Positions 1-28,040 of a DNA stretch of 54,065 nt are shown piece after piece. The stretch spans positions 186,001 through 240,065 of the forward strand of contig NW_015165302.1 in assembly GCF_001447785.1 (NCBI RefSeq), read 5' to 3'. Numbering within the stretch: position 1 is the first letter of the stretch; every line of letters begins with the position of its first letter. Made by a program: the position numbers and the translations under genes. The notes beneath the pieces were generated by a model. It was not told where the DNA came from. It made no database searches and saw only the letters and a program-made list of their open reading frames with translations. This DNA is from Gekko japonicus (Eukaryota).

Positions 1-2326
1 ATCCATTCCCCCCCCCCCCCCTGGGGGGGAAAAGCAACTACAAGCTTCGGTTCCCTTCAATCGATTCTTTCCTCCCTAGATTGGACTTCTGGGGAGACTG
101 CCCATGTGGAAGGTCTGGAATGGGAACGACCCCCTCACACCCACCCAACACTACAAATCCATCCAGTTCAACCAGCCATTTGATTCTAGGAATGCGCCAG
201 CCTCCTTTGACCCAAGCGCCCTGGATCCACCAGATCTTATCTCTAAAAGAGTGCTATTCCCCCCCCTCGGCTCCCCCCTCCCATTGACCAAATGAAAACG
301 GTTTATGGCGGCTCCTCTTCTCCCCCCCCCCCCTCCTGTTTTTAACTCCCGACGCAGGAGCGCCATTGAGTGCCGCAATGCAGTAGAGCTGTAAATACCT
401 TTAACAGCTGCCTGCCAAGCAAGGAGTGAAATACGGTCTTTGTTCGGATTCTCCCACCCTCCCCAGTTTCAGGACCTCATAAAGCAAGCCGAGAGAAGTA
501 CATTTCACGGAGATGGGGGTGGGGGGGTGGGGGAGGAAAAGCCTACGATTAAGCTATAAACAGGCTTGGGGTTTTAAGTGCTCGGGTTGAGATGAAAATT
601 GCATATCCTTAGAAAGTGAATCCACTGTCTGTTATCATACACGACACATAGGATCTGCGGGTCTCTTCCAGCAGTGAAATCAACCTCTGTTTTTTGCGTG
701 CAAACCGCTCGTGCGATTATGAACCGGTTTACTGGAGTATGGATGAGGAGGGAGGCCGAGTTTCCATGCTGACTTTAGGGATCCTCTTTTTCCTTTGAGA
801 ACCAGATCAGGTAGCCAGCGACCCTAAACGCAAGCCCCCCTTTCCCAACGCAATTGACTTCAACGGAAGTTGAAAGCGAGCTGCCATTACATTTCTTTAT
901 TTATCGTTGTTGTTCCAAATAAACATTCCTAGAACGATTCGGCTGCAATTGTGCTTAGGATGGCCGTCTTAAGATATGGTGTCAGAGGTCTACTGGACCT
1001 TCTCCCGACCAGAATTTAATTCTGGACGTCAGTTTCTTTTCAGCCTGTCCCCAGCTCTCTTAAGCCGAAATCACCAGGGGTACGTTCTGTTTCAGCCCTC
1101 CTGAAATGTTTAATGAACTCCCAAAGTTTGTTCGTTTTGCTGGTTTTTACTTCATTGAGTTACAGACGGGGCAACTGGATAAATCCCAGGCTAAAAACCG
1201 GCGTGGAAACCCGAGGCACAAATGCACCGCCGATCATTGGTAGTTATGTTTGCAACAGAGCTCTAACCAGGGGTCAGGGGAGCGGAGGAGATGCGATACA
1301 GCAGAGGAAAGGGGGCGGGCGGGTTTGTTTAGGCACCTGCGAATGTTTTGAGGCGAAATAGTTTGTGGTTTTCGACTAGGACCTGCAGCTATTCAAGTCT
1401 AGTCCTAGGATCACCTTGAGGAGTATCCCTCGGCTCATAACTATTCTCCATGATGGCGGCTAATAATTCCGAAGCACCGCATCCTTAAGAGGTGATTGAA
1501 CACTTGGTAAAACCCGCCTCCAAAAGACTTTCAGCAACTCTTCAAGGAGAACAAAAACGGACACCTCTTGCTTTTTTAAGCATTTATTGTGAATAACACC
1601 AACATCTCGAAAACCGACTCTCTCCATTAAGTTACCTGAGTGTCATTTCACAAACCTGGCTGCCTACGGGCGAAAGATACCACTTTTCGATATGACTTCT
1701 ATCACCATTATGGAAATCTGTTTGCAGGAACCTCTGAAGAGAACCTACACCCGCCCATCCCTAGAGGCACTGAGAGCCATTTTTCTTCAACAACATTTTT
1801 CTTTCTTTTACAGCACGGTACTTTGTTCAGCCTGTACTTCCCTGAATGGAACTGAAACCCATCGCCGCCTTAAAGACCAACAACATCAATTCTGAATGAA
1901 CCAAAATTCTAGGCGGTCCCACTTTAAAATACAAGAAGCCAGTCCTGCGGAACATCCCAAGCAAGCTCGATGTAAAAAAATCGCCATGCACTTTTACAAG
2001 AGGAATAAATTCCATTCAGAAGTATTGACTTACTGCCAAGTAAACAGAGCCAAGACGGAACTGATAGCGAGTACATGTCTTCCCCTGCCCCCCCACACAC
2101 ACCAGGCTGTTACTGTTAGAATAAAAACAATCCATTCATTTCCCCACCATCACCACTTCCCACCACTGGAGATCAGATAGACAGCCAGAGCAGTTAGAGA
2201 GTATCTCATCCATTATATTTATTCCAAATATTCTGAGAAATAACGACATTTGTCACCAAGTTCCCTTCCCTCCCCCCCGTGCTGAAAGGGTACACAACGC
2301 ATTTATTCCAGAGGCGCTGGTGATAC

Positions 2327-2531
2327 CAATGCTCCCTCTAAGCTGTGGAGTCTTGTGAGCAAAAATTCTACTTTGTGAGCTACTGGCATTGAAGTTGTGA
2401 GCCAGAGAGTTGCCTCCTGCATAAATTAGTTTGCTCTGGAGCCCTCTTTCCTGAGCTCAGACAAAAAGGTGTGAGCTGGAGGCTAAAAAACTGAGCTAGC
2501 TCACACTAACTCAGCTTAGAGGGAACCACTG
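2327..2531 (+). mobile_element. Non-autonomous hAT-like MITE, copy 1 (~205 bp)
   Basis: Imperfect TIRs caatgctccctctaagctg ... cagcttagagggaaccactg; repeated internal TGTGAGC motifs; similar to the copies at 7516 and 8065; partial TSD (gatac on both sides). Confidence 0.85.
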
Positions 2532-3547
2532 GATACCATCCGCGCCAAGCGGTTGGCAGCCATATTGGTGGTGTTTCTGGTGGCACACGGGCATGTGTTG
2601 GTCTCTCTTCCCCATGGCTAGCGTCAATATCACAACAAGGAATTCTATCCCGAATAGTTTGCCACCTGCTCCGAGGCCTTGCACCGGCCCGGAAGGGGCA
2701 ACAAACAAACCACCCCGGGCGTCTGCCATATCCGAGAAAGCTGCGTCCACGAATCCTCCCCAAACATTCCAGCTCTGCATTCGCAGTGTTTCGATTCCTC
2801 TCCCCGCCTTCTCCTTTTCTCAATGCGAAATTTCGGCCCTCTGCCTCGCCGCTAACACGCGTGGCTGTGCAGACGGTCCTGGCGCGCGGTGTGAACGGGG
2901 AGGGGGAGGGCAGGAATGGATAGTTCGAGGATTCTTCCTGCGTGTCCGCAAAGGGAAAGGAGTTTTGGCAGCGACCCGCAGGGCGCCGAGGAAGCCAGGC
3001 TTGGCGCAGGATTCCGCTTTGTCTGCTTAGGACCCTGATGGGATGGGGGGGGGGACCGGTGGCACCTGTTGGCAACTGCGGGCATGCGGGTGAAATCCTG
3101 GCACTGGGGGTAAAAATTCAAGACTGGAGAGGGAGACGCCCGGCCACGGGTGAGAACGAATGGGAGATCTCGCTTTTGGGAGATGTATCAGGGGTTGGTT
3201 TTTGTTGGGTTGTTGTTGTTGTTTTGAAGGGGGTCAAGACTCTTGGGTGGCTTCTAAACCTCCTCCCCCCCCCCCCAGCCGCCGCCCGTGTTTCTGTAAC
3301 GCTGGAAGCCACTCTCCTTTGTAACAGCAGGGCTGGAGCGGCGAACGCCCCCTCCGCAGCCAGACAGGTGGCCAAGCAAGCATTTCACTGCCTCCCCCCC
3401 CCCTTCTAGTCTTCCTCACTTTCTTTTATGACTTCTGGAGTCATTGTCCCGCGCCTTAAGGGGGGGGGGGAAGGAGAAAGAGAGGAAGCCCTGGAGCGAT
3501 GCAGGCAGGCGAGTCCGAAAGAAACCTGAAAGAAAGACCAGCCTTAC

Positions 3548-4060
3548 CCGTCCATTGCCGGGGCGCGAGGGCGCGGAGCCGAGACGCGTCTTGGTAATCC
3601 ATGGCGAAAAGCAATCCGAGTCCTCCTTCTCCAGACCGGAGAAGCCAGAGGCGGCAGGACAGGCAGGCAGGCAGGCAGGTAGGGGCTGGGAAGAAAAAGG
3701 CAGCCGGCTACCAGGGGGAGGGGGGGAAACAAATCCAGCTGCCTCGCTGGCCGGCGAGTGTGTTTGTTTTGAAGCGCCCTGGGCTGGACCGGATCGGCAC
3801 CCCAACACCCCAGCCCGGGCTCATACACCTCATCGGAGACAAAGGTTAGCAAAAGAGGGGCTGGGAGGCTCTGGGAAAGGCAGAAGGCAGGGGGAAATTC
3901 GCCAGGGGAATCGGGGGAGGGGGGGCGGTGGAATAAAGGCCATGAGAACCTACCGCGCTCGCACATGACCAAGCGCAGCCAATGACGTGCCCGAATAGGT
4001 CATAAAAGGTCTATTACCGAGTTGTAAATTGTCTTCAAACAAAAAGGAATTTACTGCAAT
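3548..4060 (-). promoter_or_regulatory. Orphan Hox-type promoter with a putative non-coding first exon (candidate distal promoter for long Hoxd4/Hoxd3 transcripts and/or an antisense lncRNA)
   Basis: CACATGAC-n7-AGCCAATGA at 3962-3985 matches the Hoxd10 promoter module in the same orientation; GTCATAAAA Hox/Cdx site at 3999-4007; CpG-rich; donor CGG|GTAAGG at 3548/3547; no homeobox nearby. Confidence 0.5.
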
Positions 4061-6920
4061 TCCTGGCGGATCTCGTGCTCTCGCCCCTTTCGGTTTCCTC
4101 TGAACTAAAGACACCAGATCTGTTGAGGCTGATCCGGCTACGCAGTCAAAAACTCCAGGGAAAGGGTTTGTGTGTGTGTGTCATTAGCAGGGGCCAGACT
4201 TCAGGAGAGAGATTCCTGTACGGTTTTTACATCCCCCCGCTAAACATAACCCTAAGATCGATTCCCTTATCCCCCCCCCAAAAAAATAAAAACCCCCACA
4301 AAGCTTCCGAAGTGTAGACCGCTGTTTGGCGCAGTGCGACGGGGCGAGGAACGGTCTCCCCTCCTTCATGTCCTGGAATTGCCTTTAGCTAAAGTGAGGC
4401 TCTCTGCTTGGCCTCTTTGCCCGGTTTTTGCAGATTTAGGGGAGGAGGAAGCGATTAGGCTTGGGGGGGGGGGGCGGGGGAATAAACCAGGCGCTGGGGC
4501 GCTGGGGCCGAACCTCAAATCGCGGTGGATTTGTATCCAACACCCCCCCCTTTCCCCCTTTCCCAGTGTTAACAAATGAATCCTGATGCCCGCAGCCCTG
4601 AAGGGGTTTCTCCTAACTCTTCTGTTCTTCTGTTTCTCAGTGTCTCCCGGGCTTGCCTTTGGAGGGTCCCAAAAGAATTCGCCCCCCTCTCGATTTCTGG
4701 AGCGTCTTGGGTGTTGCAGGACGAGGGAGCTGTTCCAGCCCACTGAGCAACAGGGCCCTGCCACCACCCCCTGAAGCACTGACCCTGCTTGGCTGCAGAT
4801 CCATTGCTGGGGGGGGGGGAGGGGAACTGCTCCGGTCTCCTCACTCCTGCTAAACTTTCAACGTGTCTCTTTCGAGGAAGAACCGACGTCTCCGTAGAGA
4901 GACCCGCAGCCACGGTCGCATTCCCGTGTTTTGTGTTTCCTCCCCAACCTGCGAGATTGGAACGCCCGGCTCTGTTAACTGAGGAGCAAGTCCCGTTGGA
5001 GAGCAAAACCTTGGGACGCTGGTCGACATTTTGCTGGTCTGAGGCCGGCAGACGAAGTATTCTAAATGGAGAGTGGCATTATTTGGAAGGGCGATGGGGA
5101 TTTTCATTACCTCTCCCCCATCCCCATAGTGACACAGTTTGGGCCTCTGTCTGTACAGCCACCAATTCCAGAGGCCCCAAATCCCGTTGTCAATCAAAGG
5201 TCTCCTTTACAACCGAGCGATTTCTCCCAAGAATATTTCTAGTTCATATTATGGGATTCTCCTTTCTACTTAGGAACAAGGCTTCTGGCGATTTTAGAGG
5301 CTTCCACCTAAGGGGGACACGGGTCGGTTTCAATTGTCTGAAAAGGCCGCGTTGGAGGCATTCTAGAAAGGAGACCAGACCAGTTTCCAAAATTGAGGCT
5401 TTTAAGGGAATCGAGGCGTTCTCCGGCGGTGGCGCATTCGATTCATTGCGGTTTACTTAGATGCTACGATCTGTAGATGAATGTGTTGATTTCTCTCATT
5501 GTAAAGTACATGGATAAATGGTTTCCAGAGAATATATTTTTAAAAGTGGTCCACTTTTACTACACCTCCCCCCCCCCAATAAAAATCCGTGTTCACAGGA
5601 CTGGATATTAGATAATTCCCGATCATGTCTTTGTTCCGGTTACAATAGCTAGTCTGTTTGGAGCGCTTCAAAATGGCCTCGACCTGCGGGGCAGAAAGAC
5701 CCTCGGTGGCCTTAAGTCACCCCTGTTCTTCCAAATTTCGATATAACGATCGAAATATTTTGAATATATATATCTGGTTTTATAAATCTTTTAAAAATCT
5801 TGATATTACCAAATGACAACGACAGCTGAGCCTTCTGCATTGGTTGGTGGAGGATCCCTGGTCTTAGATCCTCCACGAATTGACCGCGGGGCGGTTTTTT
5901 GCCGCATTTATGCAAATTCCTGCGCCAAATTGTTTGCGTCTCCAGTTCTGCCGCAGTTCCGCTGCGCCTTGGTGTCCCCCGCCCTGGCGCTCCTAGCGGC
6001 ACTGCGATCCAAGGAAGGCGCTTCAGTTTGGTTTTTTTTTTGGGGGGGGGATGCAGCGGAATTATGAAAGAGCCTCGGAAATTAGACTGCTGCTGGTTCC
6101 CCCCAAAAAAAGGATTGTGTCTTTCAGCCCTAACAGAATGAGTGCATCACAGAAGAGACGACCTAGCTTTTCATTGAAAATGTAGGCCCCAGATTTTTAG
6201 TTCTTTCTCACAGGCATAACAATAATAATAAAATGTTAACCTGGTCTATTTCTAGATAAGGGCTAAGTTCTGTTTCTACTCCTGCAGTAAGGGGTTCTTG
6301 TCCTTCTCTTTCCATCTTCCCCTGCATGGTATCCTTACCCATACAGGAAGGGGAGCAAGAGGGAGGGGGACTGCTGGGCGCTGGGGGGGTGGGGGAGTAA
6401 ATATGGCAGAAACAGCATTGCCCCAACACTACTGGGGGGGGGGGTTGACAGTAGTCCCAGCCGTAGTCCCAGTCGGTCCTCCTTGCTAGGCCCTTTTAAT
6501 TGACCCCCCCCCCACTGAAATCAATAAAAAGGGCTCAGGTTTTGGCCCCCTTACGGAGAGTTTTACTAATACACTGGTAGGGGGGGCTGTGCCTACACAG
6601 GAGCGCTCTTCCTTGTTTTGAGAAGTCACTTCCTGGTCGTGTATGAAAAAAAAAAAAGAGTGTGCCAAAAGGCTCCTTCGCTCTTCCTCCTGGACCCTCC
6701 CCAGGCCTCCCTGGGCAGGAGCCAGCGAAAGTCTCCTTTGCCTGCGGTGTAATAGGAGGACCTCAGAGTGGTGGCTCTTTCAAAAAGAAGGCCGCCTTCT
6801 CGGTTGGTGCATGAAAACAGCAGCCGTTTTAAGGTCAAGATGGGCAGCCGTGTTAGTCTGTCCGTAGCGGTAGAAAAGAGGAAGGGTCCAGTAGCACCTT
6901 AAAGAGTAATAAAAATATTT

Positions 6921-7116: not shown

Positions 7117-7515
7117 ACCCCACCAAGAATGTCTGGTTAGTCTTTTAAGGAGCTACTGGGCTGTTACTCTTTTCTACTGCTATCCGTTTTAAGGTCCGTC
7201 TCAGCCACACTCAAGTAGCCTCTTGAGCTAGAAGTTTATTGAATTATAAGACCGGTTTGAGAAGCCATCTTCTCAGTGTTGCCGGGAATGAAAAGAACCC
7301 TGGAGAAGGTAAAATGAAAGAGAGAGTTACCGGGTGGAGTGGGAGGGACAATTGTGTGGGGAAACTCGTCTGCTCAGTCCCCCTCACTGTAGGGCTCAGA
7401 GCCACTGAATCATCCTTCAGGATCCAGTCCCGAGAATACTTGCCTGGGAGAAAGCCCCGTTGAATAAAATGGGGTTTAACCAGGCCTAGGACTGCAAGCG
7501 AATTGCACTCAAGAC

Positions 7516-7721
7516 CAGTGTTCCCTCTAAGATGAGTTAGTGTGAGCAAGCTCACAGTTCTTTAGCCTCCGGCTCACACATTTTTGTCTTAGCTCAGGAA
7601 GGATGGCTCCAGAGCAAAGTAACTGATGCAGTAGCCAAATCGCTCGCTCACAACTTTAATGCCAGTAGGTCACAAAGTAGAATTTTTGCTCACAGGACTC
7701 TACAGCTTAGAGGGAACACTG
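7516..7721 (-). mobile_element. hAT-like MITE, copy 2
   Basis: TIRs cagtgttccctctaag / cttagagggaacactg; perfect 8-bp TSD ctcaagac (7508-7515, 7722-7729), the TSD length typical of the hAT superfamily. Confidence 0.92.
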
Positions 7722-7894
7722 CTCAAGACTGCCTGTAAAGCCATGGAAGAGAATCCGCTCATGTCTCTGTCTTTTGTAAGGAAAAAGATGCCTTCCCTTA
7801 TTTGCACAAGGTGGTCACAATCCAGCAGAGAATTAGACACCCTTGGTTAAAGTCCCTTGAAGTACATTTACCTCTCCCTTTCCTACAATGCTGT

Positions 7895-8064: not shown

Positions 8065-8272
8065 CAGTTCTGTCCCTCTAAGCTGTGGAGTCTTGTGAGC
8101 AACAATTCTACTTTGTGAACTACTGGTGTTAAAGCTGTGAGCGAGCGATTTGGCTACTGCATAAACTAGTCTGCTCTGGAGCCATCATTCTTGAGCAAAG
8201 ACAGAAATCTGTGAGCCGGAGGCTAAAAAACTGTGAGCTAGCTCACACTCACTCGGCTTAGAGGGATCACTG
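8065..8272 (+). mobile_element. hAT-like MITE, copy 3
   Basis: Same internal sequence as copy 1; degenerate TIRs (cagttctgtccctctaagctg / cggcttagagggatcactg); no clear TSD. Confidence 0.85.
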
Positions 8273-10306: not shown

Positions 10307-10605
10307 TTAATCCGCCGGGCCATCCTCTCGGCCTTCGAGATCCTCCTGAGCTTCTTTCTTGGCCTCCCCGCCTTCCTTCTCCTCTGGCCGGGCCGCCGGG
10401 AATTTGTCCTTGTTGTTCTCTTTTTTCCACTTCATCCTCCGGTTCTGAAACCAGATTTTGACCTGCCGCTCGGTGAGTCCCAGAGCGTGAGAGACCTCGA
10501 TCCTTCTCTTCCTGGTCAGATAAGGGTTAAAAAGGAACTCCTTCTCCAGCTCGAGAGTCTGGAAGCGGCTGTATGTTTGTCTTCCTCTCCGCCTACCAGG
10601 AGCTG
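10307..10605 (-). CDS. HOXD8: Hoxd8 exon 2 (homeodomain)
   Basis: [70 protein letters not shown]...; tandem CAGCAG acceptor; TAA at 10307-10309. Confidence 0.97.
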
Positions 10606-27964: not shown

Positions 27965-28040
27965 CGACCACATGACGGCTGAGCCAATGAGATTTGAAAA
28001 TGGCCTTGAGCTGCTACCTCCCCGCCGGTCACGTGCTCCC
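27965..28040 (-). promoter_or_regulatory. Hoxd10 proximal promoter
   Basis: CACATGAC-n5-AGCCAATGA, AAAATGGC (YY1-like) and GGTCACGTG E-box. Confidence 0.65.

What the first reader, a model, noticed from the sequence alone, without database searches (positions are those of the whole stretch)
3540..4060. Ghost Hox promoter: Hoxd10-like promoter module and splice donor with no gene
CACATGAC-n7-AGCCAATGA (3962-3985) mirrors CACATGAC-n5-AGCCAATGA at the Hoxd10 promoter (27969-27990) in the same orientation. About 400 nt of GC-rich sequence follows, then a strong donor CGG|GTAAGG. It sits where Hoxd5-7 are missing from tetrapod HoxD. Hypothesis: the promoter of a lost Hox gene was kept to drive long spliced Hoxd4/Hoxd3/mir-10b transcripts and perhaps a divergent antisense RNA. 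This would parallel the shared non-coding first exon of HOXC6/5/4.
Basis: partly seen in the sequence, partly recalled or inferred. Interest (0 to 1): 0.7.

Follow-up and report, generated by a model that had tools for sequence, protein, structure and literature searches.

The report
Four-cluster Hox promoter, not a ghost
The gene-less promoter-like stretch between Hoxd8 and Hoxd4 has a matching copy at the same place in all four Hox clusters of this genome, including the two that keep Hox5, 6 and 7, so it is unlikely to be the leftover of a lost HoxD gene; it likely starts long spliced RNAs running towards Hoxd4, mir-10b and Hoxd3, an arrangement largely known from mammals.

Summary
The motif pair and the donor are real. 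The 'ghost of a lost Hoxd5-7 promoter' reading is not supported. A ~100-nt element (3962-4062) has paralogous copies between Hox7/8 and Hox6 in HoxA, B and C. A profile built from those three alone finds the HoxD copy at E 1.7e-13, next hit 0.78. HoxA and HoxB keep Hox5, 6 and 7. The element scores at shuffle level against 25 of 25 Hox proximal promoters tested, Hoxd10 included. The shared CCAAT/E-box pair is generic: it lies within 300 nt of 8 Hox start codons. No Hox5/6/7 coding remnant was found. The functional half of the hypothesis holds up. RNA-like contigs in 3 of 4 runs lie on 3546-3908; two stop at the donor, and one of these continues with 252 foreign letters. The partner exon and strand were not shown. 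The HoxA copy matches by position the mouse D2 distal promoter (PMC2868907), and a human HOXD3/HOXD4/miR-10b promoter with HOXD-AS2 is published. Verdict: an ancient shared distal Hox promoter with a non-coding first exon; known kind, modest interest.

The parts
3962..4062 (-). HoxD copy of the four-cluster conserved element (Hox8/7-Hox6 position); predicted core of a distal promoter
   Evidence: nhmmer with an A+B+C-only profile: 48.5 bits, E 1.7e-13, next hit 7.3 bits in 396,900 nt; 56 of 133 columns invariant in 4 of 4 copies
3962..3969 (-). E-box GTCATGTG (USF-type; label from the HOXB4 analogy, binding untested)
   Evidence: sequence; GTCATGTG kept in 4 of 4 copies; USF binds the HOXB4 promoter E box (PMC2193192 passages)
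3977..3985 (-). Inverted CCAAT box (NF-Y-type; binding untested)
   Evidence: ATTGG kept in 4 of 4 copies, 10 nt before TCATGTG
4000..4007 (-). TTTTATGA, Cdx/posterior-Hox-type site (label recalled)
   Evidence: TTTAYGA kept in 4 of 4 copies
3932..3937 (-). AT-rich TTTATT at the position of the HoxA TATA-like box
   Evidence: TTTAT 25-26 nt past the E-box in 4 of 4 copies; mouse D2 start lies 29 nt after its TATA box (PMC2868907), which maps to about 3906 here (inference)
3548..3908 (-). Likely non-coding first exon (strand inferred from the donor); holds short upstream ORFs only
   Evidence: contigs of X1, X3, X9 lie within 3546-3908; longest ORF 41 codons
3542..3550 (-). Splice donor CGG|GTAAGG, likely used
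   Evidence: X3 and X9 contigs stop matching at 3546; the X3 contig carries 252 further letters that lie nowhere on 2000-4015
3548..3602 (-). 18-codon upstream ORF open at the donor (phase 1)
   Evidence: no evidence of translation
3842..3850 (+). Possible donor AAG|GTTAGC of an antisense (HOXD-AS2-like) RNA
   Evidence: one X9 contig stops at 3844 with 28 unmatched letters; below the tool's 31-letter bridging rule, so suggestive only
4544..4567 (+). Strong + strand acceptor; candidate second exon of an antisense RNA (a second one at 4641)
   Evidence: 20 of 20 and 18 of 20 pyrimidines; no RNA was laid here
10412..10597 (-). Hoxd8 homeobox, nearest upstream Hox gene (6.5 kb)
27969..27990 (+). 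Same CCAAT/E-box pair at the Hoxd10 promoter, 116 nt before the ATG; motif shared, flanks unrelated

Best explanation
The element is the HoxD copy of a non-coding sequence found at the same position in all four Hox clusters, and it likely acts as a shared distal promoter whose non-coding first exon (about 3908-3548) is likely spliced onward into the Hoxd4/mir-10b/Hoxd3 region. Shown here: four-way paralogy and position; conserved CCAAT, E-box, TTTAYGA and TATA-position blocks; RNA-like contigs on the exon that stop at the donor. Inferred: NF-Y and USF bind the CCAAT/E-box pair, Cdx/Hox inputs bind upstream, and transcription starts near 3906-3908. The transcript would carry mir-10b in an intron and reach Hoxd4 and Hoxd3 by alternative splicing; an overlapping antisense RNA may start inside the exon. 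The element predates the two vertebrate genome duplications (inferred from 4 of 4 copies). It would have been kept in HoxD after the loss of Hoxd5-7 because it never belonged to one gene alone.
For: Paralogs at C11188:1206185 (a7-a6), C8362:260604 (b7-b6) and C7826:452340 (c8-c6). Local alignment z 19.3, 16.6 and 7.5, with 0 of 60 shuffles reaching each score. Leave-D-out profile finds D at E 1.7e-13. Each of 4 copies has a G|GTRAG donor 402-689 nt downstream, against 126 of 544 background 700-nt windows. Contigs of 3 of 4 laid runs, from 3 studies, lie on 3546-3908; 2 end at the donor. The HoxA copy is 4,483 nt from the Hoxa6 ATG and 2.7 kb from the Hoxa7 homeobox. Mouse D2 lies 4,496 nt before D1 and 2.3 kb after Hoxa7, drives reporter expression and starts long RNAs reaching Hoxa5 and near Hoxa3 (PMC2868907). 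D4-3/mir-10b and C6-5-4 polycistrons are listed in PMC1831499 Table 1. HOXD-AS2 associates with the HOXD3/HOXD4/miR-10b promoter (review PMC10670380) and maps 2.1-4.4 kb beyond the HOXD8 end (PMC7667460).
Against: The runs holding the exon are only guessed to be RNA. Contigs show neither strand nor start. The one raw-read RNA run (X22, about 3% read) had no reads on the exon. X1 had no contig reaching the donor. The 252 extra letters were not printed, so the partner exon is unknown; 25 AG|GT acceptor candidates fit. No other species' genome could be aligned. Equating the HoxA copy with mouse D2, and the HoxD copy with the human promoter, rests on position, not on sequence. No binding or promoter assay was run.
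Confidence: 0.85

Rival explanations
1. Relic proximal promoter of a lost Hoxd5, d6 or d7 gene, kept to drive downstream transcripts.
For: It lies in the Hoxd8-Hoxd4 gap and carries the CCAAT/E-box pair that real Hox promoters carry, a7 and b7 among them.
Against: Copies exist in HoxA and HoxB beside intact Hox5/6/7, and they lie 3' of Hox7. Scores against the a5, b5, c5, a6, b6, c6, a7 and b7 promoters are at shuffle level (best b6, 3 of 60). 0 of 16 exon queries hit the d8-d4 interval at E<0.05 (best 0.098).
Confidence: 0.05
2. The element is the ancestral upstream promoter of Hox6, or of a gene lost before the genome duplications. The HoxD copy would then be an orphan in a deep sense only.
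For: Hox6 is the first gene downstream in A, B and C. 0 of 6 Hox5/Hox6 proximal regions carry the sense CCAAT/E-box pair, while Hox4, 7 and 10 promoters do.
Against: Mouse Hoxa6 has its own conserved promoter D1 besides D2, and D2 RNAs are described as non-coding and reach several genes (PMC2868907). The A+B+C profile finds no Hox promoter above noise.
Confidence: 0.15
3. The element is mainly a shared enhancer or chromatin element, and its transcription is a by-product.
For: NF-Y and USF also sit at enhancers and can bind closed chromatin (PMC3730095 passages). Coulombe et al. suggest that the act of transcription may matter more than the RNA. Contig depth on the exon is low (about 3-11).
Against: A TATA-position block and a downstream donor in 4 of 4 copies fit a directional promoter; D2 has mapped starts.
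Confidence: 0.15

Closest known systems
H8/7-6 'four-cluster sequence' (Kim et al. 2000; Santini et al. 2003; name and papers recalled, not held). Matsunami 2010 found three CNSs shared by all four clusters, as cited in PMC3595034 (passages)
   Same: Non-coding element between Hox8/7 and Hox6 (or the next gene) in all four clusters
   Different: The published sequence could not be compared; the passage seen does not say where the three CNSs lie
Mouse Hoxa D2 distal promoter (Coulombe 2010, PMC2868907; passages and section 5 part 1 read)
   Same: Position after Hox7, about 4.5 kb before Hox6, conserved core with TATA-like box, non-coding first exon, long spliced RNAs
   Different: It is the HoxA paralog; HoxD has no Hox6/5 downstream and a weaker TATA position (TTTATT)
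HOXC6/C5/C4 polycistronic unit and HOXD4-D3/mir-10b unit (Mainguy 2007, PMC1831499; section 3 parts 1-2 of 3 read)
   Same: Common promoter, shared non-coding exon, alternative splicing, miRNA in an intron
   Different: The text seen gives no start coordinates; the link to this element is by position and paralogy
Human HOXD3/HOXD4/miR-10b promoter with HOXD-AS2 (Deforzh 2022, not held; seen only in review passages PMC10670380, PMC12092875; coordinates PMC7667460)
   Same: A few kb 3' of HOXD8; sense long RNA plus antisense RNA
   Different: The antisense RNA is only hinted here (one contig, 28 letters), and it would overlap the sense exon head-to-head rather than diverge
NF-Y/USF CCAAT-E-box pair, e.g. 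HOXB4 HXRE-1/HXRE-2 (PMC2193192, PMC3730095; passages)
   Same: Inverted CCAAT followed by an E box at fixed spacing; also at b4, c4, d4, a7, b7, c10, d10, d9 in this genome
   Different: Binding untested here; PMC2193192 labels HXRE-1 as NF1, and NF-Y at that site is recalled

Membership tests
Hox8/7-6 four-cluster element | Lies between Hox8/7 and the next 3' Hox gene | tested here: met
Hox8/7-6 four-cluster element | Homologous copy in HoxA, B, C and D | tested here: met
   D vs A/B/C 75/128, 79/128 and 71/129 identical
Hox8/7-6 four-cluster element | Identity with the published sequence; conserved from shark to human | not testable with these tools
   source papers not held; no other vertebrate genome available
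Shared distal Hox promoter with non-coding first exon | Transcribed first exon without a long ORF | tested here: met
   contigs of 3 of 4 runs on 3546-3908 (RNA status is the tool's guess); ORFs of at most 41 codons
Shared distal Hox promoter with non-coding first exon | Donor is used | tested here: met
   X3 and X9 stop at 3546; X3 continues with 252 foreign letters; contigs only
Shared distal Hox promoter with non-coding first exon | Splices into two or more downstream Hox genes | tested here: inconclusive
   partner exon letters not shown; 25 candidate acceptors, the strongest being the Hoxd3 coding-exon acceptor
Shared distal Hox promoter with non-coding first exon | Mapped start about 29 nt after a TATA-like box; promoter activity | tested here: inconclusive
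   predicted start about 3906, farthest contig end 3908; contigs cannot show a start; no assay
Relic promoter of a lost Hoxd5/6/7 gene | Resembles the proximal promoter of a surviving paralog | tested here: not met
   8 of 8 Hox5/6/7 promoters at shuffle level
Relic promoter of a lost Hoxd5/6/7 gene | Absent as a separate element from clusters that keep those genes | tested here: not met
   present in HoxA and HoxB
Relic promoter of a lost Hoxd5/6/7 gene | Coding remnant downstream | tested here: not met
   0 of 16 exon queries at E<0.05; an old remnant could have decayed past detection
HOXD-AS2-like antisense RNA | Spliced + strand RNA from this region towards Hoxd8 | tested here: inconclusive
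   one contig ends at the + donor 3844 with 28 unmatched letters; no RNA laid beyond 4015
NF-Y/USF composite site | Factor binding | not testable with these tools
   motif and spacing only

The most novel reading that the evidence does not exclude
One promoter older than the vertebrate genome duplications gave rise to the long polycistronic RNAs of all four Hox clusters (Hoxa D2, a HoxB7-B6 start, the HOXC6/5/4 exon, the HOXD3/D4/miR-10b start). It was originally the main CCAAT/E-box promoter of Hox6, whose proximal region lacks that module. The HoxD copy is then a Hox6 promoter that outlived its gene because mir-10b and Hoxd3/d4 depend on it, which would be one reason why the middle of Hox clusters cannot be broken.
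Probability: 0.15. Interest if true: 0.55.

Novelty: new member of a known kind. Interest (0 to 1): 0.24.

Why it matters
It ties four separately described long-transcript promoters to one inherited element and gives a testable reason why gene-less DNA between Hoxd8 and Hoxd4 was kept. It also adds RNA-contig support outside mammals. The element and its human and mouse transcripts are largely described already, so the gain is a synthesis and a new species, not a new kind of system.

Tried and rejected
Rfam scan of the window: 0 hits. Hoxd10-specific homology: rejected. Hox5/6/7 coding remnants between Hoxd8 and Hoxd4: none. Deep homology of the A+B+C profile to any Hox promoter: none above E 0.78. 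Direct splicing into Hoxd4 exon 2 does not fit: that exon starts with TG, while the contigs match 2 nt (GT) past the donor. The acceptor at contig 183430 is excluded for the same reason (it would match 5 nt). No RNA holder on record was listed. Promoters not compared because the ATG was in N, unmapped or not fetched: d8, d11, d12, d13, d1, a1, a2, a13, b1-b3, b13, c1, c3, c12, c13. Literature: 'four-cluster sequence'+Hox gave 0 papers; HOXD-AS2+bidirectional promoter+HOXD3 gave 0; searches gave no paper naming this element. Passages of PMC5676926, PMC2080641, PMC2746220 and sections 24 and 27 of PMC8334257 added nothing specific. Kim 2000, Santini 2003, Chiu 2002 and Deforzh 2022 were not held, so absence from print is not shown. 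No supplements were read; Coulombe Fig. 3B and Fig. S1 may bear on the D2 match. Earlier scan notes near this place and by sequence: none.

Full report
Observation. The window holds Hoxd12, d11, d10, d9 and d8 on -. Neighbouring DNA of the same contig gave Hoxd4, mir-10b and Hoxd3, at 21.2, 19.8 and 46.9 kb from the E-box. The site is thus 6.5 kb past the Hoxd8 homeobox, in the gap where Hoxd5-7 are absent.

The element is a four-cluster paralog. A homeodomain search located HoxA, B and C in G000, and their central parts were fetched. BLAST and a motif scan found related sequence between a7 and a6, b7 and b6, and c8 and c6, in the same orientation. The four copies align over about 130 nt, with 56 of 133 columns invariant. 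A profile built from A, B and C only finds the D copy (3962-4062) at 48.5 bits, E 1.7e-13; the next hit in 396,900 nt has 7.3 bits. The A, B and C anchors were first found with D as query, so this is a check of rank, not a blind discovery. From memory this is the 'H8/7-6 four-cluster sequence'; the source papers were not held. PMC3595034 (passages) confirms only that three CNSs shared by all four clusters were reported.

The ghost reading fails three tests. First, HoxA and HoxB keep Hox5, 6 and 7 and still carry the element, 3' of Hox7. Second, the 150-nt core scores at shuffle level against 25 of 25 Hox upstream regions (best b6, 3 of 60 shuffles; d10, 21 of 60), against z 7.5-19.3 for the three paralogs. 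Third, 0 of 16 Hox5/6/7 exon queries hit the d8-d4 interval at E<0.05. The Hoxd10 likeness is a generic module. The sense-oriented ATTGG-n3-12-TCAYRTG pair occurs 14 times in the four clusters, against 0-3 in 8 simulations. Four are the element's copies, 8 lie within 300 nt of a mapped Hox ATG (a7, b7, b4, c4, d4, c10, d10, d9), 1 is probably Hoxa2's, and 1 is intergenic. None lies at a5, b5, c5, a6, b6 or c6. The pattern was drawn from the finding. USF binding to the HOXB4 promoter E box and the fixed NF-Y/E-box spacing are published (passages).

RNA evidence. 24 runs were listed; none of the 20 holders is on record as RNA. Four were laid on 2000-4015. Contigs of X1, X3 and X9 (three studies, 30-132 million letters each, RNA by the tool's guess) lie on 3752-3908, 3546-3898 and 3546-3844. 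Other signal lies at the repeat 2325-2526, and in a few bins that I read as low-complexity matches (X1 3428-3495; X3 2068-2135 and 3156-3291). No run has depth at 3972-4015. X3 and X9 both stop at 3546, two bases past the exon end, as expected if the next exon begins with GT. The X3 contig has 252 more letters that match nothing in the laid stretch. Bin depths (1.24 and 1.41) equal 18 nt of those contigs, so no intron contig abuts the donor. Against: X1 has no contig at the donor, the raw-read run X22 (about 3% read) has no read on the exon, strand and start are not shown, and the extra letters were not printed. Of 25 candidate AG|GT acceptors, the strongest (20 of 20 pyrimidines) is the one 129 nt before the Hoxd3 ATG. 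One X9 contig ends at 3844, at a + strand AAG|GTTAG, with 28 unmatched letters. Strong + acceptors at 4567 and 4641 both begin with T, which fits, but an indel would look the same.

Mechanism. Shown: paralogy, conserved motif blocks, exon-limited contigs, a likely used donor. Inferred: a directional promoter. All four copies have TTTAT 25-26 nt past the E-box and a G|GTRAG donor 402-689 nt downstream (background 126 of 544 windows; window size chosen after seeing the data). In mouse, the D2 promoter starts 29 nt after a TATA box, 2.3 kb past Hoxa7 and 4,496 nt before the Hoxa6 start, inside a conserved 160-bp block. It is active in transgenes and gives long RNAs to Hoxa5 and near Hoxa3 (PMC2868907). 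The HoxA copy here is 4,483 nt from the Hoxa6 ATG, so it is likely D2 (position only). Carrying the 29-nt offset to HoxD predicts a start near 3906; the farthest contig ends at 3908. Human and mouse D4-3/mir-10b and human C6-5-4 polycistrons are tabulated in PMC1831499. HOXD-AS2 is tied to the HOXD3/HOXD4/miR-10b promoter (review passages) and spans 176134841-176137098, beyond HOXD8 at 176129705-176132695. That is the syntenic place, though no sequence comparison was possible.

Earlier scan notes (AI notes, unchecked) reach the same reading in an elephant shark, a lizard and a skate. They are leads, not support. My reading was recorded before I saw them.

Verdict. Real feature; first reading partly supported (function likely right, origin wrong). 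It is a member of a known kind in a new species; interest 0.24. The boldest surviving reading, an ancestral Hox6 promoter that outlived Hoxd6, has probability about 0.15.

Noticed in passing
L006:2587-2763 (G000:C5592:138587-138763, outside the window): The Hoxd3 homeobox reads as a Hox6-type homeodomain, 96.9% identical over 161 nt to this genome's Hoxb6 homeobox, joined to the Hoxd3 C-terminal tail; the usual start of Hoxd3 exon 2 seems to be missing. Likely an assembly chimera; gene conversion is not excluded.
   Followed up: partly
   Followed up: partly
window 2325-2531, 7514-7724, 8073-8272: Copies of a ~200-nt high-copy SINE-like repeat inside the HoxD cluster, also present in HoxA, B and C.
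   Followed up: partly
window 20958-20973; C11188:1219648; C7826:472108: Hox9 promoters (d9, a9, c9) carry the E-box/CCAAT pair in the opposite orientation to Hox4/7/10; d9 has CCAAT boxes on both sides of one E box.
   Followed up: no
G000:C5592:171472-171565 (L003): A DR5-like element upstream of Hoxd4 is shared with HoxA, B and C; likely the known Hox4 5' retinoic acid response element (label recalled).
   Followed up: no
G000:C5592:174262-174414 (L003): A 167-nt block, 71% alike to HoxC C7826:428049, between the element and mir-10b; unidentified.
   Followed up: no
window 50749 and 51575 (- strand): Two similar CACATG...AACCAAT stretches beyond Hoxd12, AT-rich and CpG-poor; probably a repeat, not promoters.
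   Followed up: no
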